Shown here: positions 2,769 through 41,649 of the stretch, piece by piece | Position numbering within the stretch: the stretch's first letter is position 1 | Layout of the letters: every line of letters starts with the position of its first letter | Assembly (NCBI GenBank): GCA_965214245.1 | Contig: CBDCBL010000010.1 | Location: forward strand, 480,414-544,413 | Direction: 5' to 3' | DNA length: 64,000 nucleotides | Source of the DNA: Acidobacteriota bacterium | Lineage (GTDB): Bacteria; Acidobacteriota; UBA890 | Notes under the pieces: generated by a model | What the model was told of the DNA's origin: nothing | The model's database searches: none | Seen by the model: the letters and a program-made list of their open reading frames with translations, nothing else | Position numbers and translations under genes: made by a program

Positions 2769-3999
2769 CGACGGGCCCGTCTGGCACCCCGACGGCGAGC
2801 GGCTCGCCTACATCACGACAATCCGGCCCGAGGTGGCCCTGGCCTACCTGCAGACAAAGCTAGCGCTCATCCGGATCGGTGAGGACGAGCCGGTGTTGCT
2901 CACGGAGTCCCTCGACCGGAAGGTATACGAGCCGCGTTTCGCGCCCGACGGAGGGCACATCTACGTCCTGCTCGAGGATTGGGGCCGGGTCCATCTGGCC
3001 GCCGTGTCGGTTGACGACGGCAGCCTGAGCCGGCCGATCGCCGGACGGCGCCGGGTGGATACCGCCACCGTCGGGCCCGACGGCACCGTCGTCGCGCTCG
3101 TCAGCGAGCCCCGGTTGCCTGCCGAGCTATTTGCCCTCGATGCTGAGCCCTCCGCCTCCCCTCGACTCCGCCGCCTCACGTACGCCAACGACGAGCTGTT
3201 GAAGACGGTCGCGCTGGCGGGCGCGGAGGAGGAGCGCTTCCCGGCCGTTGACGGAACCGAGATCCAGGCCTTCGTCTACAAGCCGCGGTCGTTCGACCCG
3301 AACGTCCGCTACCCGACCCTGCTCTGGCTGCACGGCGGCCAGGAGTCGCAGTACGACTATGGTTTCAATTTTCGGGTACAGCTCTTCGCCGCCAACGGCT
3401 ACGTGGTCGTGATGCCGAATGTTCGAGGATCCGGAGGCAGGGGGCTCGACTTCACGCTCTCGAACTGGCGCGCGTGGGGCACCCACGACTCCGAGGACGT
3501 GATCGCCGCCACCGACCACGTCGTGGGGCTGGGCTACGCCGACCCCGATCGGCTCGGCATCGGTGGCTGGTCCTACGGTGGGACACTCACGAACGACGTG
3601 ATCACCAGAACGGAGCGGTTCGCGGGCGCCATCTCCGGGGCCGGCAACGCGCTATGGATCACCAACTACGGCCACGATCGATACCAGGACTGGTACGACA
3701 CGGAGCTCGGCCCGCCCTGGGAGAGCCGCGAGATCTGGGAGAGCGTTTCGCCTTTCAACAAGGTCCAGAACATCACCACGCCGACGTTCTTTATAGGAGG
3801 GGAAAAGGACTGGAACGTCCCGATCATCAGCTCCGAGCAGATGTACCAGGCGATGAAGCAGTTGGGCCGCGAAACCTTGCTCGTGGTCTACCCGGACGCG
3901 CACCACGGCATCAGACGGCACAGCCATCAGAAGGACCTGCTCGAGCGCTTTCTCGGCTGGTTCGACAAGTACGTCAAGGGCTCAGAGTCCGGTTCATAG
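2746..3999 (+). CDS. S9 family serine peptidase (acylaminoacyl-peptidase/dipeptidyl-peptidase-like). It lacks most of the usual N-terminal beta-propeller.
   Basis: C-terminal alpha/beta-hydrolase domain with GGWSYGG (GxSxG) nucleophile and catalytic D/H context. Only about 170 aa of PD40-like sequence precede it. The start overlaps the end of the sortilin gene. Confidence 0.7.
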   Translation: MTSNPGSDDGPVWHPDGERLAYITTIRPEVALAYLQTKLALIRIGEDEPVLLTESLDRKVYEPRFAPDGGHIYVLLEDWGRVHLAAVSVDDGSLSRPIAGRRRVDTATVGPDGTVVALVSEPRLPAELFALDAEPSASPRLRRLTYANDELLKTVALAGAEEERFPAVDGTEIQAFVYKPRSFDPNVRYPTLLWLHGGQESQYDYGFNFRVQLFAANGYVVVMPNVRGSGGRGLDFTLSNWRAWGTHDSEDVIAATDHVVGLGYADPDRLGIGGWSYGGTLTNDVITRTERFAGAISGAGNALWITNYGHDRYQDWYDTELGPPWESREIWESVSPFNKVQNITTPTFFIGGEKDWNVPIISSEQMYQAMKQLGRETLLVVYPDAHHGIRRHSHQKDLLERFLGWFDKYVKGSESGS

Positions 4000-4026: not shown

Positions 4027-5394
4027 GGATGTGTCCCGAAGTTTGTAGAAAATCGTCTGGCGTGGCTCCGAGCTTGGACGTTTGATGTTACCTGCTACGC
4101 GGCCAACTCCTCCTGTTGGTCGATGATCGCGGCGAGATGCCGGTACCCGTCGATGCGGCGCATGCGGATCTGCCCGAACGCGATCAGCCCCCACAGCAGC
4201 GTCACCCCGGCCGCCTCGGTGCTGAACGATCCCTGGGTCTTGGTACGGCGACGGAACTCGCGGTTGAGGTTCTCCAGTGGGTTCGTCGTGCGCAGCGTCT
4301 TGCACATCGGTTTGGGGAACTCGTAGAAGGTCAGCAGCACCAGCCCCGCTTCCTCGAGGCTGCGCGCCACCGCCGGCACCAACCTCGACCACTTGCGCAC
4401 GAAGTTGCTGTACGCGGCCCTCGCCTCGCTGCCGTTTGCCGCCTTCACGATGCGGTCCCAGTCTCGTTTCAGCTCGTCGTGGGCGTGTGACGGGCAATGC
4501 TTCAACAGATTCTTCCACTTGTGCTGAAGGCAGCGCTGCACCTTCGCTTCGGGCCACACCGTCGTCGCCTTGGCCAGCCCTTTGTGGCCGTCGGCGATGA
4601 TCAGCCGGGGCGGCCGAAGACCTCTTTGCTCTAGGTCCTCGATCAGCCACTTCCAGTGACACCCGGCCTCCGAAGCGGCCCGACGCAACGCCACCAACAC
4701 CTTGCGCCCATCTTCCGCCACTCCCAGCGCGGCGAAGATCGGCACCGACACGACCTGCCGCGCCAACCTCACCTTCAGGTGGAACCCGTCCAGGTATACG
4801 ATCGGGTACGACTCACCGGTCAGATCGCGCTCGCACCACGTCCCGAACAGCTTCTTCAGCCGCCCCACCACCCTCGAGATCGCGCTCTTCGAGAGGTTCG
4901 CTTCACCCAGCAGCGGCGCGAGCGCCTTGCGGATCCGTCGGCTATTTGCACCCGCCAGGTACACCCCTAGAATCGCCTCGTCGACTTCCTCGGTGCGCCG
5001 TTGATACCGCGGCAGGATCGTGCTGCGGAACTCCCCGGTGCTGCCGTCCTCTCGCAGCAGCCGTCCCCGTGGTACCTCCAGATCCTGCGGCCCCTGCGCC
5101 ATCGTGATCTGCCGCCGATACGTCCCGTGCCGATATCCTCGCCGCGAGCCGTTGCGCTCGTACGGCCCGCATCCCAACGCCTCGGCGAGCTCCTCCTCAA
5201 GCGTGATCGTAATCGCCTCCTGGATGCGGCTGTGCAGCAGCTCCTGGATGGCGCTACGGAACTCGATGACCGATACCTCTCCCATGCTACCGTTGCTCAT
5301 GGTGTGACCTCCTTGTTGTCGCCGTTTCCAGCGACTCGTTTTTCCTACTCGGAGGTTACGCCATTTCTTTTTCTACAGGACTCGGGACGGATCC
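4027..5394 (-). mobile_element. IS256-family insertion sequence, copy 1 (1368 bp). No target-site duplication; there is an adjacent deletion.
   Basis: Imperfect terminal inverted repeats GGATGTGTCCCGAAG... and ...CTCGGGACGGATCC. Identical in length and almost identical in sequence to copies at 59785..61152 and 27068..28374. Flanks are gctccgta and gccagtcg, which do not repeat. Confidence 0.85.
4095..5300 (-). CDS. IS256-family (Mutator-type) DDE transposase
   Basis: 401-aa ORF with characteristic IS256 transposase sequence. Three near-identical copies in the window. Confidence 0.9.
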   Translation of the reverse strand: MSNGSMGEVSVIEFRSAIQELLHSRIQEAITITLEEELAEALGCGPYERNGSRRGYRHGTYRRQITMAQGPQDLEVPRGRLLREDGSTGEFRSTILPRYQRRTEEVDEAILGVYLAGANSRRIRKALAPLLGEANLSKSAISRVVGRLKKLFGTWCERDLTGESYPIVYLDGFHLKVRLARQVVSVPIFAALGVAEDGRKVLVALRRAASEAGCHWKWLIEDLEQRGLRPPRLIIADGHKGLAKATTVWPEAKVQRCLQHKWKNLLKHCPSHAHDELKRDWDRIVKAANGSEARAAYSNFVRKWSRLVPAVARSLEEAGLVLLTFYEFPKPMCKTLRTTNPLENLNREFRRRTKTQGSFSTEAAGVTLLWGLIAFGQIRMRRIDGYRHLAAIIDQQEELAA

Positions 5395-6726
5395 GCCAGT
5401 CGAGCCAGTCTGCTGACAGGACTTGTGGAACGCACTCATCAATCGACATTCGGCACGCCACCACTCGCCGTCCGATTTACCGACCGGAGTTATCCCGTCT
5501 TGTTACGGGAGGCTGGTTATAAGACGGGATTTATCGGGAAATTCGGCGTTGCCACAGAGCCGGGGGCTGTCGAGAAGATGTTCGACACCTACAAGATGTT
5601 CGACACCTACGTACCCCTGCGGCCCGCGCCCTACCTCAAGCAACAGGAAGACGGGTCGACTCGCCACCTTACGGACATCACTGCGGACAGAGCCGTCGAG
5701 TTTCTGCGATCTGCCGACCGGACCACTCCGTTTGCTCTGACTCTGAGTTTCAACGCCCCTCACGCCGACGATGGGGATGAAAGACAATTCATCTGGCCCG
5801 AAGCGATGAACGAGAAGTATTCAGACGTTGCCATACCTGCTCCCCCTCTTTCCGAACCCGCATTCTTCGCCGCCCTCCCGGAGTTCTTGAAGGATGCTTC
5901 TCTGAACAGAGTCCGCTGGTACTGGCGTTTCGATACGCCCGAGAAGGCACAGCAAATGACGAGGGGACATTTTCGGATGATCACCGGTGTCGACGCTGCC
6001 ATCGGGCGTGTTCTCGATGAGCTCGAGTCCCTTGCACTCGCGAGTAATACAGTCGTCATTTTGATGGGAGACAACGGGTATTTCCTGGGAGAGCGCGGAT
6101 ACGCCGGGAAATGGCTCCCGTATGATCTTTCGATACGTGTGCCGCTCATAGTTTCCGATCCACGTATCGAGAAAAAATTGCGAGGATCGATTCCCTCATT
6201 GCCCGCCCTGAATATCGATATTGCGCCAACATTGCTCGATCTGGCCGGTGTCGAGGTCCCGAGTACGATGCAAGGCAGAAGCCTGGTGCCGATCCTCGAA
6301 GGCGCGTCTCCTGCGGAGTGGAGAAGCGACTTTTTCGTCGAACATCTCTTCGACCATCCGGAAATTCCGAAACACGAGGGCGTTAGAGGTGAACGGTACA
6401 AATACGCCAGATATTTCGAGCAAGACCCTGTATACGAAGAGCTTTACGAGCTCCTCGTGGATCCAATGGAAACCAGAAATCTGGCCGGAAACACTGATTA
6501 CCTTGGAATTCTCACGGAGTTGAGAAGACGCACGGACGAACTCCTGGCTGAATATGGCGGACCCTACACGCCTATCAGCCTCGTCGCGCCGCCGCAGGCG
6601 GAGGCCCAACCGGCAACCGGCGATGCGACGTCATTGGTGTCGGCGAGTACATTCGGCATGAGAGCATCGTCGGGATCGAGCGCGAAGCGGCCTTCGTGCC
6701 GGGTGTCAGCAGGATGCGGAGTCTGA
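5395..6726 (+). pseudogene. Sulfatase (arylsulfatase/GlcNAc-6-sulfatase family), 5'-truncated by IS256 copy 1 inside the catalytic C-x-P-S-R-A-S-L-L-T-G motif.
   Basis: Reading starts SRASLLTG immediately after the IS end. There is no start codon or signal peptide upstream of the IS; a stop lies 9 codons before it. Contains an 18-bp tandem duplication (KMFDTY x2) at 5575..5610. Confidence 0.7.
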
Positions 6727-18236: not shown

Positions 18237-20786
18237 ATGAATCGAGAGCTGCTGCAAGCGACCCTTCTCATCTGCCTCTTGATCGGCCCGGGCCTCGTCG
18301 TCGCCCAGGACTTCGCCGCCTACCCGAGCCCCTTCGTCGTCGGCTATCCTGCGAGCGGCTTCCGCGGAGCCGGCAAGATGTACATGGAGAGCTACTTTCC
18401 TCCGCCGGTGACCGCGTCCCCGACGTATCCGGCGTGGTCCCCGGACGGGGCCTCGCTGGCGTTCGCCTATCAGGGGCGCATCTGGAGGGTTCCGGTCGAG
18501 GGGGGTGTCGCCGAGCAACTGACGACGGGCGCCGGATACCACTCCCAACCGAGCTGGTCTCCCGACGGGCACTACCTCGCCTACGCTGCTGACGTCGACA
18601 CGAACTTCGACATCTACACGCTCGAGCTTCAGACGGGCGAGAGCCGCAGGGTGACGGCCGATCCCCGCCTCGACCTGCGGCCGCGTTGGTCGCCCGACGG
18701 CTCCCGCATTCTCTTCACGACCGCGCGCATCGTGTCTTTCGACTTGTGAGCGTACCACGTCGAACGTCAGGTCGCGGACCCCGTCGTGGCGAACAGTCGG
18801 AACAACATGGCAGGCGACTGGATCGGAGAGGACGGAGATCTCGTCTTCGTCTCCAGGCGGGGCCAAGCTGCGCTCGGCTCGGGCTCGCTCTGGCGCTGGA
18901 GCTCGGCAACCGAACAGGCCGAGCTGCTCATCAGGATCGAGACGAACTACCAGGCCGCGCCGGTCGTCGCACCGCACGGCGGGATCGTCGCCTACGTCAC
19001 CGATGCCTCCGGAAGCAACGACCTCTACGCGGTGCCGAGCCGGAGATCGAACCGCGGCATCCAGCCGGTTCGCCTGACGCACACCGGAACCGACGAATAC
19101 TTCCCGGCCTGGTCACCCGACGGTGAGCGGCTCGCGTACGCCCGCAACGGGGGTGAGCCGGACCGTGAGCGAACCGCCGACTCGAACATGGGCTTCGGTC
19201 TCTACACCGTCGGTCGGGGCGGCGGGGCCCCGCAGCCCGTCCGTATCGACGACTACGCGTGGTCCGAGCCGACGGGCAGTGTCCGCGTGCGCGTGAGTGA
19301 CGAGAACGGCCAGCTGCTCCCGTCGCGCATTTACCTCGAGGGCTCTGACGGGCGCAGCTACTTCCCCGACGGGAGCTACCCGCGTGTGCTCAGCGTGACC
19401 GAGGAGTACTACTTCCACACGGACGGCGGCTTCTCTGTCACGCTCCCGGTGGGTGAGGCCGAGCTCGAGGTATGGCGGGGCTTCGAGTACGAGCCGGTTC
19501 GGACGTCTGTCGACGTGCGCGCGGGCGAGTGGACGACCGTCGACGTCGAGATCGAGCGGTGGATCGACATGGCCTCGCAGGGCTGGTACTCGGGCGACAA
19601 CCACATCCACCCCAACTACGGCGGCCATTATTTCGTCCAGCCGATCGATCTCAGGAACAAGGCCCGGGCCGAGGACCTGAACGTTGCCAACGGGATGATC
19701 GCCAACTACTGGGGCAACAGCCGGGTCGAGGACCTCGAGCACTTCCTGGGCCATCCGCACCCACACGGCGACGAGCGCACGGTCGTCTACTACAACGAGG
19801 AATACCGCCCCAGCTTCTTCGCCCACCTGTCGCTCCTGAACCTCGTCGAGCTGATCACACCGTTCTACATCGGCTCGATCGGAACCGCGCACCACGCCCT
19901 CTATCCGGACAACGCCTCGGTGCTTCGTCGGGTACACAACCAGGGCGGGATCGGCGGCTACGTGCACCCCTTCGGCCTGAATCATCGCGATCCGGTGGCG
20001 GCCGGTCCCAGCGGCGCGCGGGAGCTCCCCATGGACGCGATTCTCGGGCTTGCCGATTTCGTCGCCGTCGCGTGTATCTGGAGTGACGAGCTCGGCACGG
20101 CGGAGATCTGGTACCGCCTCCTGAACACCGGTTCTAGGATCCCGGCCACCGCGGGGACCGATGCAATGACCGACATCTGGCGGCACCCCGCGGTGGGAAC
20201 GACCCGGTCGTACGTTTACACCGGCCAGCCGGAGCTGGACTACGACGAGTGGGCGGACGCAATGGCCGCGGGCCGCGCGTTCGTCACGAGTGGGCCGATT
20301 CTCACGCTCGATGTGTCGGGCAGGGAGATGGGGGAGGAGCTCGAGGCTTCACGCGGTGACGTGGTCCAGGTATCTGCCACCGCGCGCTCGATCTTCGAGA
20401 TGGACCGACTGGAGATCCTCCGAGACGGCGAGGTGATTCACGTGGTGGAGGCCGACGGCGCCAAGTCACTCGACGCGGAGCTCGAGCTCAGGGTCGAATC
20501 GAGCGGCTGGATCGCGGCTCGCGTTCTAGGCCCGACGCAGCACGGAGCCATGGACAGCTACCTCTTCGCGCACACGAACCCGGTTTTCGTCATCGCCGAC
20601 GGGGAGCAGATCCGCTCGGCAAGGGACGCAGCGTTCTTCGTCGACTGGATCGACAAGACGCTCGCCGACCTCAGGGCGATGGACCGGTGGGACGATCCGG
20701 CGCACAAGGTCAAGGTCCTCGAGACGTTCGAGATGGGCCGGGCGCTGTATCAGGCCCAGGTGGAGGCGGCGCGCCGACGGCCCTGA
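18237..20786 (+). CDS. Secreted PD40/TolB-like beta-propeller fused to a PHP/amidohydrolase-like metal-dependent hydrolase domain. An in-frame TGA at 18747..18749 interrupts it.
   Basis: Signal peptide, WSPDG PD40 repeats, then a GDNHIHP (HxH) metal-binding motif and a conserved C-terminal domain. The two ORFs share one frame and are separated by a single stop in the middle of a PD40 repeat. Confidence 0.55.
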
Positions 20787-21136
20787 CGGCCGATTCTGCT
20801 AATTCCGATAAAACCCTGCAAACATTAATACCGAGGGAGGGACTCGAACCCGATCAAGGCGATTCCCGTAACCTACTGATGGCGCACGACTTTCGATCAT
20901 AACCCCTCGGCAGTGAATCACTTACCGGCGCCGATCTTGTCCCCTGGAGTCCCCCTCAGTCCCCTGGAGTGCACCCCCGTCGTGGAGACATTTTGGAGAC
21001 GGTGCAGAGCCGGAATCGCCTGGCTGCGGCTTCCCCAACCCGAGGTTTAGAAGTCCGCTGCTCTGTCCCCTGAGCTACGGGCGCGCCCTCTTTTTATGGG
21101 CACTTACGCGATTGCACGATGGGCGGCTGTGCCCGA

Positions 21137-21303
21137 ATGGCGCCAGCAGTACAACCGCGTACGACCGCACAGCTCGCTGGGCTATCGACCTCCGGCACCG
21201 GAAGCGGTGTTGTTGAAACCGGCTACGCTACGCTTCGCCGGCCTCAACAACCTCTTGTCAGCACCGTGTTACTGAGATAGAAGGTGGTACTAACCGCGGG
21301 GTC
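21137..21303 (+). mobile_element. Solo right-end remnant of the IS3-family (IS407-like) element: last 45 codons of orfB plus the terminal inverted repeat.
   Basis: Identical to 26901..27067 of IS3 copy A, ending ...GGTGGTACTAACCGCGGGGTCTGGTCA. Confidence 0.85.
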
Positions 21304-22534
21304 TGGTCAACCTGATCGAAGGCGTTTCCTAAAACGCGGGGCCGCGTTCGCCGGTGGTTTGACCTTGGGAGGGGTAGAGCCCGCGATCCGCGAGGCAGCA
21401 GCATCTGGACAGTCTGTCGAGGGACAGCCTCAAGACGAGGTCCCCTACTATTCAAGTGATGAGCTGATCGCCTATGGCGAGCGCTCTCGTTTCGTGACGT
21501 CGAAACGCATACCACACGGCGGCAGGCCGTCACCCGATGAGTTTGGGCTCGTCTTTCATGTGGCGACTCCGCTTCAGGATTCGGTGGGGGTGATCACGCC
21601 ATCCGCGCTCCACTATGTGGGGACCACCCGGGGCTCCTTCGTTCCGGACATCGATCCCGAGGAGCATCGTCTCATGATCCACGGCATGGTGGAGCGTCCG
21701 CTGACGTTCACCATGGAGGACTTGAAGCGTCTCCCTTCCGTGACCCGCCTTCATTTCATCGAGTGCGCGGGGAACCGTTCGAGGCGCTCGCACACGACAG
21801 TGCAGGAAACGCACGGGATGACCAGCTGTGCCGAATGGACCGGAGTGCTCCTGTCTACGCTGCTCGAGGAGGCGGGCGTGCAAGACGGGGGGACCTGGAT
21901 CGTGACGGAAGGGGTGGAGGAAGTAAAAGGAGCGTCGAGCCTTCCAATGGCGAAGGCGATGGACGACATCCTGGTGGCCTACGGCATGAACGGCGAGGCG
22001 CTACGTCCCCAGCAAGGCTTCCCGCTGCGGCTGGTGGTTCCAGGCTTCGAAGGAATCCTTTCCGTGAAGTGGCTGAGGCGAATCAAGGTGGTGGACCGAT
22101 TCTACATGACCTACAACGACTACGGACATCTTCGTCAGGACCCCGACGACGCTGCGCTGGGTTACCAGATCGGACCGAAATCGGTCATCACCTTTCCGTC
22201 CGGGGGACAACAGCTGCCCGGCCGCGGATTCTACGAGATCAGCGGCTTGGCCTGGTCCGGCGGGGGGGCCGTTAGCAGGGTGGAAGTATCCACCGACGGT
22301 GGCGAGAGCTGGATGGACGCTGAAATTCGCGGGACGGCACATCGCATGGCGCATACTCGGTTCACCTTCAAGTGGACTTGGGACGGAACAGAGACCGAGC
22401 TCCAGTCGCGCTGCACGGACGAACTGGGCCAGATTCAACCGGATCGACGGCTGGTCCGTGTGAGAGGCCAGGACAATTCCATTCAGCCGTGGAGGATCGA
22501 GAGCGACGGGAGCGTGCACAATGCGATCTCTTAA
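21284..22534 (+). CDS. Sulfite dehydrogenase molybdopterin subunit (SorA/SoxC-like sulfite oxidase family) with Tat signal. The only in-frame start (GTG) lies inside the IS3 terminal repeat.
   Basis: RRRFLKRGAAFAGG Tat motif, sulfite-oxidase Moco domain and dimerisation domain. No start codon lies between the IS end and the Tat motif. Confidence 0.7.
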   Translation: MVLTAGSGQPDRRRFLKRGAAFAGGLTLGGVEPAIREAAASGQSVEGQPQDEVPYYSSDELIAYGERSRFVTSKRIPHGGRPSPDEFGLVFHVATPLQDSVGVITPSALHYVGTTRGSFVPDIDPEEHRLMIHGMVERPLTFTMEDLKRLPSVTRLHFIECAGNRSRRSHTTVQETHGMTSCAEWTGVLLSTLLEEAGVQDGGTWIVTEGVEEVKGASSLPMAKAMDDILVAYGMNGEALRPQQGFPLRLVVPGFEGILSVKWLRRIKVVDRFYMTYNDYGHLRQDPDDAALGYQIGPKSVITFPSGGQQLPGRGFYEISGLAWSGGGAVSRVEVSTDGGESWMDAEIRGTAHRMAHTRFTFKWTWDGTETELQSRCTDELGQIQPDRRLVRVRGQDNSIQPWRIESDGSVHNAIS

Positions 22535-23088
22535 GCTTTTCGCGTTTCTGATGCTCGTGGGGGGGGGCAGGCTCCGCGCTGGCGCAGTCGCCCACCTATG
22601 GTGTGGGAAGGACCCCGAGCGCAGAGGAAATCCGTGCCTGGGATATCTCCATCAGTCCTACGGGAGAGGAACTCCCGCCGGGGCGCGGAACCGCCACGGA
22701 AGGCGCGCTGATCTATCGGCGGACGTGCGCGCCATGCCACGGGGCGGATGGGACAGAGGGCCTCGCTCCCAGGCTGGTAAAACGCGAAGCGGGACCAGAT
22801 GCCGACCCCTGGGCATTGGGGCGAATACTGCCGATTCGCTCGCCGTACGCGACGACGGTATGGGATTACATCAATCGTGGCATGCCTCTCTATCGAGAAG
22901 GAACCCTCACCCCCGATCAGGTCTACGCGCTGACGGCCTTTCTGCTCTACTTGAACGATGTCATCTCGGAGGACGAGGTACTTGACGCCCAGAGTCTGCC
23001 GAGGGTGGAGATGCCAAATCGTGATAACTGGGCTCCGCTACCGGATTGGAAGCCCGGGATGCCAAGGCTGCCAGGTTACCCCCACTGA
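22521..23088 (+). CDS. Mono-haem cytochrome c (SorB/SoxD-like partner of the sulfite dehydrogenase). The frame breaks inside a G9 tract between signal peptide and mature domain.
   Basis: CAPCH haem-binding motif. Signal peptide MRSLKLFAFLMLVGG in frame 0; the mature protein is in frame +1 after GGGGGGGGG at 22559..22567. With 8 G the peptide reads ...LVGGAGSALAQSPTYG. Confidence 0.65.
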
Positions 23089-23143
23089 CGTACGGCAGGG
23101 TTGCCGGCCCGAATTTTACGGACCAAGGTGAAGACTGCGACGG

Positions 23144-23515
23144 CTACAGGGTGATTACCTGATCCGGAGGATTTCCCGCCAGCGCGGCGTACAGGTCTGG
23201 AAAGCAGCCCACCGCTACGCCTTCTACGGTGCCGACCGCGTGTCCCCTGTCGGGCCAGGTGCCACCCTCGCATAGCCCGCGCTCGGTCGCGCAGGAATCG
23301 CACATCATCAGCAGGATGCCTTTTTCCTTGGCGACTTTGGCGAGGCGCTCGCCCATTTGGTCCCCGGCACGGAGCATGTAGGTGTTGTCGTCGAAAAACA
23401 TCATGCCGACGACTTCCACTCCGTGGGCGTCCTGTTCGAGCTGCGGCAGGATCATCTGCCCGAGCTTGTAGCTGGCGGTGTGGCCGGAGGTGCTGAAGAC
23501 GTACGCTACTTTCAA
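23144..23515 (-). CDS. DsrE/DsrF/TusD-like sulfur-relay family protein
   Basis: 123 aa, DsrE-like fold signature with conserved Cys (MMCDSCA). Confidence 0.55.
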   Translation of the reverse strand: MKVAYVFSTSGHTASYKLGQMILPQLEQDAHGVEVVGMMFFDDNTYMLRAGDQMGERLAKVAKEKGILLMMCDSCATERGLCEGGTWPDRGHAVGTVEGVAVGCFPDLYAALAGNPPDQVITL

Positions 23516-23558: not shown

Positions 23559-25807
23559 CTACCACCCTGTCGGCACCCGCTGCTTCAACTCCTCGAACCA
23601 GTTGAGAACGACGTTGATGCGGGGGGTGGTGGTCTCTGTGTCTCCCGGGTCACCGCTACTAGCGGGCACCGTCACCAGGAACTTCTGTCCATCGGCGGTA
23701 ACATCGAAGTTGCTTAGGACACGCCTGGTGATGCCGGCGAGCTCGACAGGGTCGGATGCGGAAAACGGCTCCATCTCCACTTCCGCAACGAGGATGCCAG
23801 AGCTGTTGACGGAGCCGTAGTAGATTTCCTTTCCATCCTGCGACCAGCGAGGGCCACCACCACCACGGGTACTCGTAGAGACCGGAAATTTCCGACCGCT
23901 CGATACCTCCCGCACGTACACCTCATATTGCCCGGTCTCGTTCGACATGAAGGCAAAGAAGCGACCGTCCGGCGAGAAACGGCCGCTCCGCTCGTCGGCG
24001 GCGGTATCGACGAGTGTTTCCGTCTGATCTGCATCGAGAGCCAGTATCCCCACGTCGGCAGGGAGGAACCCTCTGGTAAACAGCAGCATCTCACCGTCCG
24101 CCGAGATCGACGTCGGGCTCACGTCATCCTCTGTATCCAACACTCGCTCGGCGTCGAGACTCTGGTCAGCCCGCCGCTTCCAGATGTCGTTATTGCCACC
24201 CCGATCCGACATGAAGAAAACCCACTCTCCATCGGGCGACCAAACAGGGGAACGGTTGTTGCCCTCCGTGGTCAGCAACACCTGGCTGCCTCCTCGTTCA
24301 ACCTCGTAGATCCAGATGTCCCACTTCCCATCATCTCCCTGGATGTCGAGCACGATGCGCTGCTCATCCGGCGAGAGGTCCAAGATCAGAGAGGAACGCG
24401 GCTCGAAGGGCAGCGGCTCAACTTGGCCGTTGTTGCGATCCACCCAGGCGAGTTGGTAAGAATTGTATCACCGCCACCCGGCATGTACACCAGCCCACCT
24501 CGATCCGAAAAGGCGTACTGCCCTGCTCCCCTGGTTTCGATAGCTTGTTCGACGCCCGCAACAATGGACACCGATCCTCCGGTAGCCTCGATGTTGTCTG
24601 CATCGAAGGGCACTGCAAAAAGGTTGCCTTGCAGCGAATAGACGAGGTGGCCGGTGGGCACGTAGCGGCCATCGGTCCCTCCCGCCACCACGAGCCGGAG
24701 CCCCTCAATGCAAACAGCAACCACTCGCCGCCGGGAAGAAGTTGGGGGCCGCGGGCTTGCTCGCCTTCTTCCATTTCAACGACTACCTCTGGCTCCCCGC
24801 CGTTCTCCGAGACACGCAAGATCCCTTTTGCACCCTGCCCGAAGTAAATGTAGCCGTCATCTGCCCAGCTCGCCCCGGAAGCAAACACAGGCGCCGCCCC
24901 CAGCGAGACCGGCGCACCCCCGGTGATCGAAACCTTCTTCATCTGCTCGTCAGCTCTCCAAAAGCCGAGCTGTTGGCCGTCGGGGGAAAAGAACGGCACT
25001 CTGGCACCCTCCGTGCCACGGATGGGTGTGGCAACTGGATCGTCAATCGCTCGCAGCCAAAGCTGCCGGTTTCCGTTAAATACCACCGACCTTCCATCGG
25101 GTGAGATCGCAACGCCCAGGGTGGCAAGGGACTGGAAAGTAGTTTCTGGTGGATAGTCGATGTGGAAACGCGTGATCAGGGGCTCGGGCGGCGACGGAAT
25201 CATGATCCAAACTCCGAGAGCTGCCAGCAGGGCGATGGCCACGGCTATCGGGGCTGCGAGTTTCCATGGGATGCCGCGTGTCATTTCCACGGCGGCAGGA
25301 GCGACAACCGGCTGGCCGTCACCGACCGGCACGGCCACGCCCGCTGTGATGTCGTCGCTGAGCTGCCGGAGGTCGACGACGATCTCGTCGCCCACCTGGT
25401 AGTGGCGATCCGCGTCCTTGGCCAAGCACTTCCGCAGGCTACGGTGCAGCTCGGCGGGCAGATCCGGCTTGATCTCACCCAGAGGTTGAGGCTCAGTACG
25501 GGCGATTGCATGCAGCGTATCGAGGACCGTTTCCCCACCGAACGCTTGCTTTCCAGCGATCATCTCGTACAGGACACAGCCGAAGGCGAACAAGTCGGCG
25601 CGTTGGTCGATCTCCACGTCGCCCTGAATCTGTTCCGGGGCCATGTAGCCGGCGGGTCCCCATTACCTGGCCCGCCACCGTCCCCAGCATGGTCGGCGAC
25701 ATCGACGCCGACGTTCCTGGTGGGGCCGGACCTTCGGTCAGCTTCGCCAGGCCGAAGTCGAGAACCTTCGCGTGGTTGTCGCGGGTCACGAAAATGTTGT
25801 CGGGCTT
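23559..25807 (-). pseudogene. Ser/Thr protein kinase with a transmembrane segment and C-terminal PD40/TolB-like propeller. The 5' end is truncated by IS3 copy A and there are at least 3 frame breaks.
   Basis: HKPDNIFV...DFGLAK catalytic and activation motifs in ORF 25493..25891. APE / subdomain IX-XI in ORF 24418..25644. PD40 repeats in ORFs 24386..24724 and 23559..24443. Kinase subdomains I-V are absent and the IS3 left end abuts at 25808. Confidence 0.7.
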
Positions 25808-25873
25808 GTGACCTGACCCCCCAAACGGATCCAGAGGTAATCTCACGATCCGGGTCGAAAAAGGGAGGTTAGA

Positions 25874-26152
25874 ATGCCGGCGAAGAGGCACAGCGCAGAG
25901 CAGATCGTACGGAAGCTACGGGAGGCTGAGGTGGAGCTGGCCCGCGGCGCGACGGTCAAGGATGCCTGCCGCAAGCTAGCAATCACCGAGCACACCTACT
26001 ACCGGTGGCGACGCGAGTACGGGGGGCTGAGGGTCGACGAGGCCAGGCGGCTGAAGCAACTTGAGAAGGAGAACGTCCGGCTCAAGAAGATTGTGGCGGA
26101 AAAGGAGCTGGATCTTTCGATCCTGAAGGAAGTTGCGGAGGGAAACTTCTGA
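25874..26152 (+). CDS. IS3-family transposase OrfA (helix-turn-helix / leucine-zipper)
   Basis: 92-aa ORF typical of IS3 OrfA. Confidence 0.85.
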
Positions 26153-26226
26153 GCCCGGCACGTCGCCGAGATGCGGTTGAGCATGTTCGGCGGAGGCTGG
26201 GCGTTTCCGAGCGACGAGCGTGCCGG

Positions 26227-27033
26227 GTGCTGAAACAGTCGCGCACGACGCAGCGGTACGTGCCACGGCAACCGGACGACGAGCAGGTGCTGACGGAGAG
26301 GATCGTGAACCTAGCCCGAGAGTATGGCCGCTACGGGTATCGGCGAGTGACGGCGCTACTGCGCATGGAGGGCTGGCTCGTGAACCACAAGCGGGTGCAA
26401 CGGATCTGGCGGCGCGAGGGGCTGAAAGTACCGAAGAAACAGCCCAAGCGAGCACGGCTGTGGCTCAACGATGGCTCCTGCATCCGACTGCGCCCCGAGA
26501 ACAAGGATCATGTCTGGGCGTATGACTTCGTCCACCACCGGACGCATGACGGTCGGGCTATGAGACTGCTGACGATCGTCGACGAGTACACACGGGAGAG
26601 CCTTGCAATCGACGTGGCGCGGAAGCTCAACTCCGAGGACGTACTTCACCGACTAGGACGACTGTTCGTTCATCGAGGTATTCCAGCGCACATCAGGTCA
26701 GATAACGGACCGGAATTCACTGCCGAGGCGGTTCGCGACTGGCTGGGCCGGCTCGGCGTCGGCACGCTGTTCATCGAGCCGGGCTCCCCATGGGAGAACG
26801 GCTATGTGGAGAGCTTCAACGGCAAGCTCAGAGACGAGCTGCTGAACGGGGAGATCTTCTACACGCTGAAGGAGGCAAAGGTTCTGATCGAGAGATGGCG
26901 CCAGCAGTACAACCGCGTACGACCGCACAGCTCGCTGGGCTATCGACCTCCGGCACCGGAAGCGGTGTTGTTGAAACCGGCTACGCTACGCTTCGCTGGC
27001 CTCAACAACCTCTTGTCAGCACCGTGTTACTGA
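26227..27033 (+). CDS. IS3-family transposase OrfB (DDE integrase core). It is expected to be made as an OrfAB fusion by -1 frameshifting.
   Basis: DDE/rve domain, in the -1 frame relative to orfA. Confidence 0.85.
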
Positions 27034-27047
27034 GATAGAAGGTGGTA

Positions 27048-28280
27048 CTAACCGCGGGGTCTGGTCACGGCCAACTCCTCCTGTTGGTCGATGATCGCGG
27101 CGAGATGCCGGTACCCGTCGATGCGGCGCATGCGGATCTGCCCGAACGCGATCAGCCCCCACAGCAGCGTCACCCCGGCCGCCTCGGTGCTGAACGATCC
27201 CTGGGTCTTGGTACGGCGACGGAACTCGCGGTTGAGGTTCTCCAGTGGGTTCGTCGTGCGCAGCGTCTTGCACATCGGTTTGGGGAACTCGTAGAAGGTC
27301 AGCAGCACCAGCCCCGCTTCCTCGAGGCTGCGCGCCACCGCCGGCACCAACCTCGACCACTTGCGCACGAAGTTGCTGTACGCGGCCCTCGCCTCGCTGC
27401 CGTTTGCCGCCTTCACGATGCGGTCCCAGTCTCGTTTCAGCTCGTCGTGGGCGTGTGACGGGCAATGCTTCAACAGATTCTTCCACTTGTGCTGAAGGCA
27501 GCGCTGCACCTTCGCTTCGGGCCACACCGTCGTCGCCTTGGCCAGCCCTTTGTGGCCGTCGGCGATGATCAGCCGGGGCGGCCGAAGACCTCTTTGCTCT
27601 AGGTCCTCGATCAGCCACTTCCAGTGACACCCGGCCTCCGAAGCGGCCCGACGCAACGCCACCAACACCTTGCGCCCATCTTCCGCCACTCCCAGCGCGG
27701 CGAAGATCGGCACCGACACGACCTGCCGCGCCAACCTCACCTTCAGGTGGAACCCGTCCAGGTACACGATCGGGTACGACTCACCGGTCAGATCGCGCTC
27801 GCACCACGTCCCGAACAGCTTCTTCAGCCGCCCCACCACCCTCGAGATCGCGCTCTTCGAGAGGTTCGCTTCACCCAGCAGCGGCGCGAGCGCCTTGCGC
27901 GAGCGCCTTGCGATCCGTCGGCTATTTGCACCCGCCAGGTACACCCCTAGAATCGCCTCGTCGACTTCCTCGGTGCGCCGTTGATACCGCGGCAGGATCG
28001 TGCTGCGGAACTCCCCGGTGCTGCCGTCCTCTCGCAGCAGCCGTCCCCGTGGTACCTCCAGATCCTGCGGCCCCTGCGCCATCGTGATCTGCCGCCGATA
28101 CGTCCCGTGCCGATATCCTCGCCGCGAGCCGTTGCGCTCGTACGGCCCGCATCCCAACGCCTTGGCGAGCTCCTCCTCAAGCGTGATCGTAATCGCCTCC
28201 TGGATGCGGCTGTGCAGCAGCTCCTGGATGGCGCTACGGAACTCGATGACCGATACCTCTCCCGTGCTACCGTTGCTCAT
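27048..28280 (-). CDS. IS256-family transposase, copy 2. It carries a 4-aa insertion, and its C-terminus is altered by read-through into the IS3 end.
   Basis: 410-aa ORF ending ...VTRPRG* with the stop inside the IS3 terminus. Confidence 0.8.
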   Translation of the reverse strand: MSNGSTGEVSVIEFRSAIQELLHSRIQEAITITLEEELAKALGCGPYERNGSRRGYRHGTYRRQITMAQGPQDLEVPRGRLLREDGSTGEFRSTILPRYQRRTEEVDEAILGVYLAGANSRRIARRSRKALAPLLGEANLSKSAISRVVGRLKKLFGTWCERDLTGESYPIVYLDGFHLKVRLARQVVSVPIFAALGVAEDGRKVLVALRRAASEAGCHWKWLIEDLEQRGLRPPRLIIADGHKGLAKATTVWPEAKVQRCLQHKWKNLLKHCPSHAHDELKRDWDRIVKAANGSEARAAYSNFVRKWSRLVPAVARSLEEAGLVLLTFYEFPKPMCKTLRTTNPLENLNREFRRRTKTQGSFSTEAAGVTLLWGLIAFGQIRMRRIDGYRHLAAIIDQQEELAVTRPRG

Positions 28281-28374: not shown

Positions 28375-28695
28375 GGACGTCCGGTCGAGAACTGCTACAT
28401 CGAGAGCTTCAACGGCAAGCTACGAGACGAGTGCTTGAGCCAGAGCTGGTTCCTGAGCCTCTCCGAGGCTCAGGAACCAGCTGGACGCATTCCGGAAGGA
28501 CTACAACGAAACGAGACCGCATTCTTCTTTAGGCAACCTGCCGCCTGCCGTGTATGTCCAACTGCTGCAGGAGGTTGCAGCTACCTGATGCCCACTAACC
28601 CGAGTTTTTCTCGTTTTCGATGGACCCAAGTTGGGGTACACCTCAAGCACCGTGTTACTGAGATAGAAGGTGGTACTAACCGCGGGGTCTGGTCA
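28375..28695 (+). mobile_element. 3' fragment of a variant IS3-family element: diverged orfB C-terminus with a frameshift, plus the same 50-bp right terminus.
   Basis: ...[15 protein letters not shown]... and ...KDYNETRPHSSLGNLPPAVY in two frames, then ...AGCACCGTGTTACTGAGATAGAAGGTGGTACTAACCGCGGGGTCTGGTCA. Confidence 0.7.
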
Positions 28696-40025: not shown

Positions 40026-40389
40026 GAAATGGCGTAACCTCCGAGTAGGAAAAACGAGTCGCTGGAAACGGCGACAACAAGAAGATCACACCATGAGCAA
40101 CGGTAGCACGGGAGAGGTATCGGTCATCGAGTTCCGTAGCGCCATCCAGGAGCTGCTGCACAGCCGCATCCAGGAGGCGATTACGATCACGCTTGAGGAG
40201 GAGCTCGCCGAGGCGTTGGGATGCGGGCCGTACGAGCGCAACGGCTCGCGGCGAGGATATCGGCACGGGACGTATCGGCGGCAGATCACGATGGCGCAGG
40301 GGCCGCAGGATCTGGAGGTACCACGGGGACGGCTGCTGCGAGAGGACGGCAGCACCGGGGAGTTCCGCAGCACGATCCTGCCGCGGTAT
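40026..40389 (+). mobile_element. IS256-family fragment (transposase-proximal end plus first 98 codons), truncated by IS3 copy B
   Basis: GGATCCGTCCCGAGTCCTGTAGAAAAAG... end. ORF 40093..40392 is the N-terminus of the IS256 transposase and stops at the IS3 terminal TGA. Confidence 0.85.
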
Positions 40390-40423
40390 TGACCAGACCC
40401 CGCGGTTAGTACCACCTTCTATC

Positions 40424-41230
40424 TCAGTAACACGGTGCTGACAAGAGGTTGTTGAGGCCAGCGAAGCGTAGCGTAGCCGGTTTCAACAACACCGCTTCCA
40501 GTGCCGGAGGTCGATAGCCCAGCGAGCTGTGCGGTCGTACGCGGTTGTACTGCTGGCGCCATCTCTCGATCAGAACCTTTGCCTCCTTCAGCGTGTAGAA
40601 GATCTCCCCGTTCAGCAGCTCGTCTCTGAGCTTGCCGTTGAAGCTCTCCACATAGCCGTTCTCCCATGGGGAGCCCGGCTCGATGAACAGCGTGCCGACG
40701 CCGAGCCGGCCCAGCCAGTCGCGAACCGCCTCGGCGGTGAATTCCGGTCCGTTATCTGACCTGATGTGCGCTGGAATACCTCGATGAACGAACAGTCGTC
40801 CTAGTCGGTGAAGTACGTCCTCGGAGTTGAGCTTCCGCGCCACGTCGATTGCAAGGCTCTCCCGTGTGTACTCGTCGACGATCGTCAGCAGCCTCATAGC
40901 CCGACCGTCATGCGTCCGGTGGTGGACGAAGTCATACGCCCAGACATGATCCTTGTTCTCGGGGCGCAGTCGGATGCAGGAGCCATCGTTGAGCCACAGC
41001 CGTGCTCGCTTGGGCTGTTTCTTCGGTACTTTCAGCCCCTCGCGCCGCCAGATCCGTTGCACCCGCTTGTGGTTCACGAGCCAGCCCTCCATGCGCAGTA
41101 GCGCCGTCACTCGCCGATACCCGTAGCGGCCATACTCTCGGGCTAGGTTCACGATCCTCTCCGTCAGCACCTGCTCGTCGTCCGGTTGCCGTGGCACGTA
41201 CCGCTGCGTCGTGCGCGACTGTTTCAGCAC
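40424..41230 (-). CDS. IS3-family transposase OrfB
   Basis: 268 aa, one substitution relative to copy A. Confidence 0.85.
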
Positions 41231-41304
41231 CCGGCACGCTCGTCGCTCGGAAACGCCCAGCCTCCGCCGAACATGCTCAACCGCATCTCGGCGACGTGCC
41301 GGGC

Positions 41305-41583
41305 TCAGAAGTTTCCCTCCGCAACTTCCTTCAGGATCGAAAGATCCAGCTCCTTTTCCGCCACAATCTTCTTGAGCCGGACGTTCTCCTTCTCAAGTTG
41401 CTTCAGCCGCCTGGCCTCGTCGACCCTCAGCCCCCCGTACTCGCGTCGCCACCGGTAGTAGGTGTGCTCGGTGATTGCTAGCTTGCGGCAGGCATCCTTG
41501 ACCGTCGCGCCTCGGGCCAGCTCCACCTCAGCCTCCCGTAGCTTCCGTACGATCTGCTCTGCGCTGTGCCTCTTCGCCGACAT
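41305..41583 (-). CDS. IS3-family transposase OrfA
   Basis: 92 aa, starting MSAKRH versus MPAKRH in copy A. Confidence 0.85.
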
Positions 41584-41649
41584 TCTGACCTCCCTTTTTC
41601 GACCCAGATCGTGAGATTACCTCTGGATCCGTTTTGGGGGGTCAGGTCA

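What the first reader, a model, noticed from the sequence alone, without database searches (positions are those of the whole stretch)
21137..21340. Sulfite dehydrogenase gene starts inside a solo IS3 terminal repeat
A 167-bp solo right end of the IS407-like IS3 element (...GGTCTGGTCA at 21303) lies immediately upstream of the sorA/soxC-like gene. The Tat motif RRRFLKRG begins 24 bp after the IS end. The only in-frame start codon before it is the GTG at 21284, inside the IS terminal repeat. No ATG, GTG or TTG lies between the IS end and the twin-arginine motif.

Translation, and probably transcription, of an intact sulfur-oxidation gene therefore seems to depend on IS-derived sequence. This is a candidate IS-generated hybrid 5' end or promoter.
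Basis: partly seen in the sequence, partly recalled or inferred. Interest (0 to 1): 0.6.

Follow-up and report, generated by a model that had tools for sequence, protein, structure and literature searches.

The report
IS scrap replaces soxC gene start
A leftover end of a jumping gene has replaced the promoter, ribosome-binding site and start codon of a sulfite dehydrogenase gene, leaving an in-frame GTG as its only usable start; this junction is real, but nothing shows the gene is still expressed, so it is an ordinary mobile-element scar.

Summary
The structure is real; the coordinates are slightly off. A 173-bp right-end remnant (21137-21309, not 21303) of a 1259-bp IS3-family element abuts soxC. 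Full copies lie at 25809-27067 and 40390-41648.

Homology to native soxCD cassettes starts exactly at 21310, which is nt 15 of the native coding sequence. The conserved promoter-like box, ~60-nt leader, strong Shine-Dalgarno, ATG and 14 coding bases are gone. An in-frame TAG (21278) leaves GTG 21284 as the only start upstream of the intact RRRFLK motif, which begins 7 nt after the IS end, not 24.

A sister genome from another sample (L091, 99.76% over 22.5 kb) has the identical junction, so this is not an assembly artefact.

There is no evidence of IS-driven expression:
- GTG 21284 has no Shine-Dalgarno (-2.7 kcal/mol, against -8.8 native).
- No sigma-70-like promoter was found.
- The gene call on record for the sister contig starts at a GTG 306 nt further downstream.
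- Only one of the three outward phases of the IS end offers a start, so an in-frame fusion has a 1/3 chance.
- soxD is frameshifted here in a G9 run, though it is in frame (G11) in the sister.

Verdict: an IS-mediated 5' replacement, a new member of a known kind. Its function is unresolved and it is more likely poorly expressed. Interest is low to moderate.

The parts
21137..21309 (+). Solo right-end remnant (173 bp) of the IS3-family element 'ISa'. It carries the last ~46 codons of the transposase OrfB (stop TGA 21273-21275) and the right inverted repeat ...GGGGTCTGGTCA.
   Evidence: 99.4% identical to 26895-27067 and 98.9% to 40389-40562. The translated remnant hits rve_3 and the IS3 transposase C-terminus. 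It is identical in sister locus L091.
21278..21280 (+). In-frame TAG that closes the soxC reading frame upstream
21284..21286 (+). GTG inside the IS right end. It is the only canonical start upstream of the twin-arginine motif.
   Evidence: No Shine-Dalgarno: -2.7 kcal/mol.
21284..22534 (+). Hybrid soxC ORF (416 aa). Codons 1-8 and two bases of codon 9 come from the IS. The rest is a native SoxC-type molybdopterin sulfite dehydrogenase.
   Evidence: TIGR04555 soxC scores 416 bits (cut-off 420) over residues 12-414. Pfam Oxidored_molyb and Mo-co_dimer both hit. 92% identical to P0001/P0002.
21317..21340 (+). Twin-arginine (Tat) motif RRRFLKRG, fully native sequence
21310..23090 (+). soxCD cassette homologous to relatives, lacking the first 14 nt of soxC and everything upstream
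   Evidence: BLAST against L001-L005: 92.5% identity, starting at nt 15 of the native coding sequence and ending just after the soxD stop
22521..23088 (+). soxD (monohaem cytochrome c partner). ATG 22521 overlaps the end of soxC. The frame is broken in the poly-G run, and the mature part is in the frame of ORF 22603-23088.
   Evidence: Intact 189-aa SoxD in L091.
22559..22567 (+). G9 homopolymer in the soxD signal-peptide region. It is G11 in the sister genome and G4 in other relatives, and it is the longest homopolymer in the window.
21047..21134 (-). 5' half of a tRNA-Arg(TCT) gene, cut just after the anticodon loop (about 21047-21087), plus about 47 nt of its native upstream region. It is the left neighbour of the IS remnant.
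   Evidence: 84-94% matches to L095, where ARAGORN calls the full tRNA-Arg(tct) at 3150-3222 and the same truncated half recurs at 569-623. No tRNA is called here.
25809..27067 (+). Full ISa copy (1259 bp): orfA 25874-26152, and orfB in the -1 frame, open from 26065 to 27033. Ends are TGACCTGACCCC... and ...GGGGTCTGGTCA.
40390..41648 (-). Second full ISa copy, in inverted orientation
28646..28695 (+). Another solo 50-bp ISa-type right terminus, attached to the C-terminal scrap of a different IS3-family element (28376-28645)

Best explanation
An IS3-family (IS407-like) element joined its right end to soxC 14 nt into the coding sequence. This happened either by direct insertion or by an IS-mediated adjacent deletion from a position just upstream. 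A later deletion removed all but the last 173 bp of the IS and joined that scrap to the upstream region of a broken tRNA-Arg(TCT) gene.

Shown: soxC lost its conserved promoter-like box, ~60-nt leader, strong ribosome-binding site, ATG and first 4 2/3 codons. It kept its whole Tat motif and catalytic body. By a 1-in-3 accident of phase, the remaining ORF is continuous with a GTG in the IS terminal repeat.

Inferred: because that GTG has no Shine-Dalgarno and no recognisable promoter lies upstream, the allele is most likely poorly expressed or silent. That would make it a young, still undecayed 5'-truncated gene in an IS-rich, rearranged stretch, rather than a gene demonstrably activated by the IS. 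Any residual expression would come from read-through from the upstream CehA-like gene, or from an uncharacterised outward promoter in the IS end, with weak initiation at the GTG.
For: Junction mapped to the base against five related loci and against 14 native upstream regions.

The native leader is absent from the window.

An identical junction occurs in the independently assembled sister genome L091, which is 99.76% identical over 22.5 kb.

Evidence against expression from the GTG:
- In-frame TAG at 21278, and only one outward phase of the IS end has a start.
- SD energy is -2.7 kcal/mol, against -8.8 native and a lineage median of -6.7.
- No promoter-like site was found.
- The gene call on record for the sister contig starts at a downstream GTG.

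The neighbourhood carries other damage:
- A kinase/TolB-like gene is cut by a full ISa copy and has at least 3 frameshifts, shared by both genomes.
- The CehA-like gene has TGG->TGA in this strain.
- soxD is frameshifted here.
- A tRNA-Arg is truncated.
- The full IS copies lack target duplications and are nested with an IS256-family element.

The IS scrap differs from full copies at only 1-2 of 173 positions. The event is therefore too recent for the intact soxC body to say anything about selection.
Against: - The soxC body is fully intact and typical of its family: 1 deviation at columns that are at least 97% conserved, against a mean of 1.5 for homologues.
- The junction is kept in two strains that have since diverged by 39 SNPs in 22.5 kb. 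In the sister strain soxD and the CehA-like gene are intact.
- No + strand terminator was found between the upstream gene and soxC, so transcription by read-through is plausible.
- IS407-group elements tested in Paracoccus carry outward promoters in their terminal parts (PMC3281130).
- About a quarter of called genes in related genomes also lack a clear SD.
- Promoter consensus for this phylum is not established, so a negative sigma-70 scan is weak evidence.
Confidence: 0.55

Rival explanations
1. Functional hybrid gene. The IS remnant has been co-opted. [quoted passage not shown] GTG 21284 supplies the start. The IS-encoded MVLTAGSGQ replaces the native MGSKP as the n-region of a working Tat signal peptide, so an active periplasmic sulfite dehydrogenase is still made.
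For: - The frame is open from the GTG through an intact RRRFLK motif and a conserved 405-aa body.
- Native n-regions in the family vary in length (3 to 30 residues before RR), so an 11-residue n-region should be tolerated.
- The junction persists in two strains, and soxD is in frame in one of them.
- IS407-group ISs drove a promoterless tetA from outward promoters in their terminal parts (PMC3281130).
- IS2 has an outward -35 in its right end (PMC3219604).
- ISAba1 Pout plus a new start yields a functional truncated AdeS (PMC3498117).
- IS3-family elements also sit upstream of soxC, in the same orientation, in L001/L002 and L006/L007.
Against: - No SD, and the start is GTG rather than ATG.
- No promoter-like site. 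A hybrid promoter using the tip TGGTCA would start transcription downstream of the GTG.
- The in-frame phase has a 1/3 chance under no selection.
- The two strains are too close (0.17%) for their shared junction to show selection.
- soxD is out of frame in this window.
- The gene call on record for the sister contig does not use this start.
- The junction was not found in the genome or metagenome collections.
Confidence: 0.3
2. The protein is made from a downstream start (TTG 21359 or 21365, or the GTG 21590 used in the call on record for the sister contig). It would lack the Tat motif and so would be a cytoplasmic, probably non-functional fragment.
For: The call on record for the sister contig is a 314-aa product starting at the GTG equivalent to 21590. 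In-frame TTG and GTG codons exist downstream.
Against: - SoxC-type enzymes are periplasmic Tat substrates. Nearly all full-length homologues among the 120 listed carry the RR motif.
- A product starting at 21590 would lack about 100 N-terminal residues that are conserved in the family (profile match 12-414).
- None of these shorter products is on record in the protein collection.
Confidence: 0.07
3. Assembly artefact: the IS scrap and its two junctions are a chimeric join made by the assembler across a repeated IS.
For: The window is rich in near-identical IS copies. The left junction lies inside the IS, not at an IS end.
Against: A second assembly from a different sample (L091, ERZ25069191) is collinear over 22.5 kb and identical from 21019 to 21930. 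That stretch includes both junctions.
Confidence: 0.02

Closest known systems
Outward promoters and gene activation by IS3-family / IS407-group insertion sequences: ISPam3 and ISPfe1 in Paracoccus (PMC3281130), and the outward -35 in the IS2 right end (PMC3219604). IS406/IS407 as 'gene-activating' elements of Burkholderia cepacia is from my own knowledge.
   Same: An IS3-family right end lies immediately upstream of a gene, in the orientation that would read outward. The IS has the IS407-like size (1259 bp) and TGACCTG... ends.
   Different: - Here the IS end lies inside the coding sequence and removes the start codon. Transcription alone would not rescue the gene, and a start codon inside the IS must also be used.
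- No promoter was detected or tested.
- Only a 173-bp scrap of the IS remains.
ISAba1-generated truncated AdeS in Acinetobacter baumannii (PMC3498117)
   Same: An IS inserted within a gene leaves a 5'-truncated ORF. That ORF can be expressed from an IS outward promoter with a new start codon.
   Different: In AdeS the truncation removes the membrane domain and creates a gain-of-function cytoplasmic kinase, with expression shown experimentally. Here the Tat signal must be preserved for function, the new N-terminus is IS-encoded, and nothing has been shown experimentally.
IS-disrupted genes in IS-expanded genomes, such as IS407A in Burkholderia mallei and IS481 in Bordetella pertussis (own knowledge; PMC4897507 and PMC3053399 appeared in the searches)
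   Same: - Many near-identical IS copies, without target duplications, nested in each other.
- Neighbouring genes cut or frameshifted.
- Synteny breaks at IS ends.
   Different: The affected gene body is still intact, and an in-frame start happens to exist.
SoxCD / SorAB sulfite (sulfane) dehydrogenases
   Same: A molybdopterin subunit with a Tat signal, followed by an overlapping cytochrome c gene. TIGR04555 and Pfam matches.
   Different: - The score is 4 bits below the curated equivalog cut-off.
- The cytochrome subunit is a 188-aa protein in which only one CxxCH motif was seen.
- No other sox genes were noted in the window.
- The cassette sits in different genomic contexts in every relative examined.

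Membership tests
IS3 family insertion sequence (for ISa and its 173-bp remnant) | Two consecutive ORFs: orfA with an HTH domain, and orfB with a DDE/rve domain in the -1 frame, overlapping orfA | tested here: met
   orfA 25874-26152 hits HTH_Tnp_1. orfB hits HTH_21, rve and rve_3. The orfB frame is -1 relative to orfA and overlaps it by 88 nt. OrfB is about 70% identical to annotated 'IS3 family transposase' genes on plasmids.
IS3 family insertion sequence (for ISa and its 173-bp remnant) | Imperfect terminal inverted repeats ending 5'-TG...CA-3' | tested here: met
   Left end TGACCTGACCCC; reverse complement of the right end TGACCAGACCCC
IS3 family insertion sequence (for ISa and its 173-bp remnant) | 3-4 bp target-site duplication flanking each copy | tested here: not met
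   Neither full copy has matching flanks, and no left/right flank pair matches. This is expected if copies have recombined or suffered adjacent deletions. It does not bear on family assignment of the element itself.
IS407 group of the IS3 family | Assignment by ISfinder comparison (about 1.2-1.27 kb, TGACCTG... ends, 4-bp duplications) | not testable with these tools
   Length 1259 bp falls within the IS407-group lengths of 1197-1269 bp listed in PMC3281130. The TGACCTG end resemblance is from memory only. No ISfinder access.
SoxC-type sulfite dehydrogenase, molybdopterin subunit | Match to the curated equivalog model and Moco-binding plus dimerisation domains | tested here: inconclusive
   TIGR04555 scores 416.2 bits against a cut-off of 420, with full-length alignment 12-414 to 1-408. 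Oxidored_molyb (180 bits) and Mo-co_dimer (58 bits) are both above threshold.
SoxC-type sulfite dehydrogenase, molybdopterin subunit | N-terminal twin-arginine signal, and an adjacent cytochrome c partner gene | tested here: met
   RRRFLKRG at 21317-21340. The soxD start overlaps the soxC end. soxD is frameshifted here but intact in L091.
IS-driven expression of a downstream gene (outward or hybrid promoter) | An outward promoter in the IS end, or a -35 in the IR with a correctly spaced -10 in the flank, placed upstream of the start codon used | tested here: not met
   No sigma-70-like site with at least 9 of 12 matches in 20400-21500. The tip hexamer TGGTCA lies downstream of GTG 21284, so it cannot serve that start. 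This is a consensus scan only, and the promoter rules of this phylum are unknown.
IS-driven expression of a downstream gene (outward or hybrid promoter) | A transcript that starts in the IS and reads into the gene | not testable with these tools
   No expression data are available
Pseudogene (inactivated soxC) | Loss of native initiation signals | tested here: met
   Promoter-like box, leader, SD, ATG and 14 nt of coding sequence are absent. The replacement start has no SD.
Pseudogene (inactivated soxC) | Disabling mutations or relaxed constraint in the gene body | tested here: not met
   No stop or frameshift. 1 deviation at conserved columns, against a mean of 1.5. dN/dS is like that of relatives. 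The event is too recent for this test to have power.

The most novel reading that the evidence does not exclude
The 173-bp IS scrap has been exapted. It would supply the transcription signal, the GTG start and the n-region of the Tat signal peptide of a working sulfite dehydrogenase, maintained in at least two strains of an uncultured Gemmatimonadota-like lineage. The partner gene soxD would be switched on and off by a hypermutable poly-G tract (G9 against G11).
Probability: 0.15. Interest if true: 0.5.

Novelty: new member of a known kind. Interest (0 to 1): 0.3.

Why it matters
If the hybrid gene is expressed, it would be a natural case in which an IS terminal repeat supplies a start codon and part of an export signal as well as possibly a promoter. 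That would show how accessory respiratory cassettes survive repeated mobile-element damage.

If it is not expressed, it is a dated snapshot of a gene at the moment of inactivation, still intact in its body. This is useful mainly as a caution for automated annotation. Such an ORF may be called a complete sulfite dehydrogenase, or, as in the sister contig, a 314-aa fragment.

In either case it does not open a new question. IS-mediated activation and truncation of genes are well established.

Tried and rejected
- **tRNA with a group I intron at 20829-21088 (-).** Rejected. ARAGORN and Rfam find no tRNA or intron. Relaxed ARAGORN gives only implausible models. The piece is a truncated 5' half of tRNA-Arg(TCT).
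- **The junction elsewhere.** Exact junction searches of genome contigs and metagenome contigs found nothing. The hybrid protein and shorter variants are not on record.
- **The displaced native 5' end next to another ISa copy.** No match in the window.
- **Relaxed selection on soxC.** The conserved-column test, dN/dS and a lineage count (15 against 11 changes) show nothing unusual. These tests lack power because the event is recent.
- **Frameshifts as assembly noise.** Largely rejected. IS copies differ mostly by substitutions. Long ORFs of 791-922 aa are intact. The sister assembly shares the kinase frameshifts. Only the poly-G length remains ambiguous.
- **RNA structure around the start.** Not different from shuffles.
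- **Terminator between the CehA-like gene and soxC.** None found.
- **Synteny of the left flank.** Relatives of the CehA-like gene at 96% and 81% identity diverge right after its stop codon, so the ancestral left context could not be recovered.
- **Look-ups of the two contigs that carry the 659-aa CehA variant** (2.97 Mb and 1.41 Mb).
- **IS3-family element upstream of soxC as a general rule.** Seen in only a few of 88 loci.

Full report
**What is in the sequence.**
The 27-nt tip GGTGGTACTAACCGCGGGGTCTGGTCA occurs four times in the window, at 21283-21309, 27041-27067, 28669-28695 and 40390-40416 (-). It never occurs in shuffles. Self-comparison defines a 1259-bp element, here called ISa, with full copies at 25809-27067 (+) and 40390-41648 (-).

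ISa has the layout of an IS3-family element:
- orfA hits HTH_Tnp_1.
- orfB hits HTH_21, rve and rve_3. It lies in the -1 frame and overlaps orfA by 88 nt.
- The ends are TGACCTGACCCC... and ...GGGGTCTGGTCA.
- OrfB is about 70% identical to plasmid genes annotated as IS3 family transposase.

The finding concerns a 173-bp scrap of the ISa right end, 21137-21309, which is 99.4% identical to 26895-27067. The Tat motif starts 7 nt after the IS end, not 24.

**Where the gene really begins.**
ORF 21284-22534 (416 aa) is a SoxC-type molybdopterin sulfite dehydrogenase. TIGR04555 scores 416 bits against a cut-off of 420, aligned over residues 12-414, and both Pfam domains are present. The closest proteins are 92% identical and 411 aa long. 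They begin MGSKPPDRRVFLKRG, and almost all of the 120 best homologues have seven residues before the RR.

The DNA of five such loci aligns with the window from exactly 21310, which is nt 15 of their coding sequence:
- native: ...CTGCGAAGGAGAGACCC ATG GGT TCG AAA CC|A CCT GAT CGA AGG
- window: ...GAAG GTG GTA CTA ACC GCG GGG TCT GGT CA|A CCT GAT CGA AGG

An alignment of 14 native upstream regions, from Gemmatimonadota to Vicinamibacterales, shows three conserved features: a TATACT box, a ~60-nt leader and a GAAGGAG Shine-Dalgarno. All are missing here, and they are not elsewhere in the window.

In the soxC frame a TAG at 21278 is followed by AAG and then GTG 21284. The codons up to the first Arg (GTA CTA ACC GCG GGG TCT GGT CAA CCT GAT) include no other start.

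**Is it real?**
Yes. The CehA-like protein of the window led to a cluster that contains an intact 849-aa orthologue. Its contig (L091; ENA ERZ25069191, 404 kb) is collinear with window 8237-30795 at 99.76%, with 39 substitutions and 3 indel events. It is identical from 21019 to 21930, which covers both junctions of the IS scrap. The structure is thus present in two independently assembled strains. It was not found in the genome or metagenome collections.

**Does the IS drive the gene?**
Nothing positive was found.
- A sigma-70 consensus scan of 20400-21500 finds no promoter.
- The only -35-like hexamer at the IS tip (TGGTCA, 21304-21309) lies downstream of the GTG. A classic hybrid promoter there would give an mRNA without the start.
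- The 18 nt before GTG 21284 pair with the anti-SD at -2.7 kcal/mol. That equals the mean for all 3583 ATG/GTG triplets of the window (-3.0). The native soxC site scores -8.8, soxD -7.8 and ISa orfA -12.0.
- Among 55 called genes of related genomes the median is -6.7, and only a quarter are weaker than -3.
- The gene call on record for L091 starts soxC at the GTG equivalent to 21590 (314 aa).
- Of the three phases in which a flanking gene can be joined to this IS end, exactly one contains a start codon in its open stretch. An in-frame start therefore has a prior of 1/3 without any selection.

Some points favour possible expression. No + strand terminator separates the upstream gene from soxC, so read-through is possible. 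IS407-group elements in Paracoccus drove a promoterless tetA from outward promoters in their terminal parts (PMC3281130). IS2 has an outward -35 in its right end (PMC3219604).

**Is the gene decaying?**
The soxC body is not.
- It deviates once (A208T) from columns that are at least 97% conserved among 118 homologues, whose mean is 1.5.
- Its dN/dS against relatives (0.29-0.60) is like theirs among themselves.
- Between the two sister strains it has one synonymous change and one change at a variable position.

These tests have no power, however. The IS scrap differs from the full copies at only 1-2 of 173 positions, so the event is recent.

The partner gene soxD is out of frame in this window. 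Its ATG 22521 frame runs into a G9 tract (22559-22567), and the mature cytochrome continues in another frame. G9 is the longest homopolymer in the 64 kb. The sister genome has G11, which restores a 189-aa SoxD. More distant relatives have G4. I cannot tell whether this is slipped-strand variation or a homopolymer miscall.

**Context.**
The locus sits in a heavily rearranged stretch of mobile DNA.
- Left of the scrap lies the upstream region and 5' half of a tRNA-Arg(TCT) gene, cut after the anticodon loop (about 21047-21134, minus strand). The complete gene, and the same truncated half, occur in a metagenome contig, which suggests an island border.
- Synteny of the CehA-like gene with relatives at 96% and 81% identity stops at 20790.
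- The CehA-like gene itself carries TGG->TGA in this strain only.
- To the right, a kinase/TolB-like gene is cut by the full ISa copy at 25809 and has at least three frameshifts, shared by both strains.
- Both full ISa copies lack target duplications. They abut an IS256-family element at two different internal positions, and a third IS3-family scrap shares ISa's last 50 bp.
- The soxCD cassette lies in a different context in every relative examined. It is bracketed by two direct 1567-bp IS3-family copies in L001/L002, and it is preceded by an ISa-like element (70% nt identity) 185 bp upstream in L006/L007.

That last arrangement suggests one route to the present junction: an IS already upstream, followed by an IS-mediated adjacent deletion. 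Direct insertion followed by loss of the left part fits equally well.

**Conclusion.**
Translation of a Tat-competent SoxC would indeed depend on an IS-derived start, but there is no evidence for IS-driven transcription or for use of that start, and several indicators point the other way.

My estimates:
- 0.55 that this is a recent IS-mediated 5' replacement that left the gene poorly expressed or silent.
- 0.30 that the hybrid is functional.
- The small remainder covers downstream initiation and artefact.

Either way it belongs to a well-known class of events, IS-mediated truncation or activation of adjacent genes, for example ISAba1/AdeS (PMC3498117).

Noticed in passing
window 22559-22567 (soxD), L091 14315-14325: A poly-G tract in the signal-peptide region of soxD is G9 here (frame broken), G11 in the 99.76%-identical sister genome (in frame, 189 aa) and G4 in more distant relatives. 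It is the longest homopolymer in the window. It may be a slipped-strand on/off switch or a sequencing artefact.
   Followed up: partly
window 21047-21134 (-); L095 569-623 and 3150-3222: The 5' half of a tRNA-Arg(TCT) gene, cut after the anticodon loop, with its native upstream region. The full gene and an identically truncated half occur in a metagenome contig, so this looks like an attachment-site or island border. A second sub-threshold tRNA-like scrap lies at about 20829-20912 (-).
   Followed up: partly
L001, L005, L006, L008, L009-L042 upstream of soxC (about -100 to -1): The native soxC upstream region has a conserved TATACT box and a ~60-nt leader ending in GAAGGAGAGACCC-ATG. It is conserved across phyla (Gemmatimonadota, Vicinamibacterales). 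It may be a regulatory leader and was not examined further.
   Followed up: no
L001/L002 3842-5408 and 7897-9463; L003 as empty site: In close relatives soxCD is bracketed by two direct copies of a 1567-bp IS3-family element, giving a composite-transposon-like structure. The downstream copy has a 4-bp duplication relative to the IS-free allele.
   Followed up: partly
L006/L007 about 4640-5816: An ISa-like element (70% nt identity) sits 185 bp upstream of soxC in the same orientation. This is a possible precursor arrangement for the junction seen in the window.
   Followed up: partly
window 27067/27068, 40389/40390, 28376-28695: Both full ISa copies abut an IS256-family element (full copies about 4027-5394 and 59785-61153) at different internal positions, and none has target duplications. 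28376-28695 is the C-terminal scrap of a third IS3-family element whose last 50 bp are identical to ISa.
   Followed up: partly
window 18747-18749: The PD40/CehA-like metallohydrolase gene (18237-20786) has an in-frame TGA where the sister genome has TGG (intact 849 aa). A 659-aa variant of the same length, consistent with the same stop, is on record from a 1.41-Mb contig that could not be read.
   Followed up: yes
window 23559-25808 (-): A Ser/Thr kinase plus TolB-like beta-propeller gene is cut at its 5' part by ISa and carries at least three frameshifts. These are identical in the sister genome, so it is a genuine pseudogene.
   Followed up: partly
window 21295-21309 against the native soxC start (for example L008 5998-6012): The IS tip CGCGGGGTCTGGTCA and the native CATGGGGTCGAAACA are identical at 9 of 15 positions in the same register, including GGGGTC. 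This may be chance, or a preference of the transposase for end-like targets.
   Followed up: no
L095 3889-3939, L097 2141-2191: Solo 51-bp ISa-type right termini, with no transposase, follow a nucleotidyltransferase/HEPN-like gene pair next to tRNA-Arg(TCT) in metagenome contigs. Solo ends of this IS type are therefore recurrent.
   Followed up: no
window 27900-27911: A 12-bp tandem duplication (CGAGCGCCTTGC) lies inside the IS256-family copy and is absent from the sister genome.
   Followed up: no
window 23144-23515 (-): An intact SaoD/DsrE-family gene (NF040913, 197 bits) lies immediately downstream of soxD on the opposite strand. It is not linked to soxCD in the other relatives examined.
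   Followed up: no
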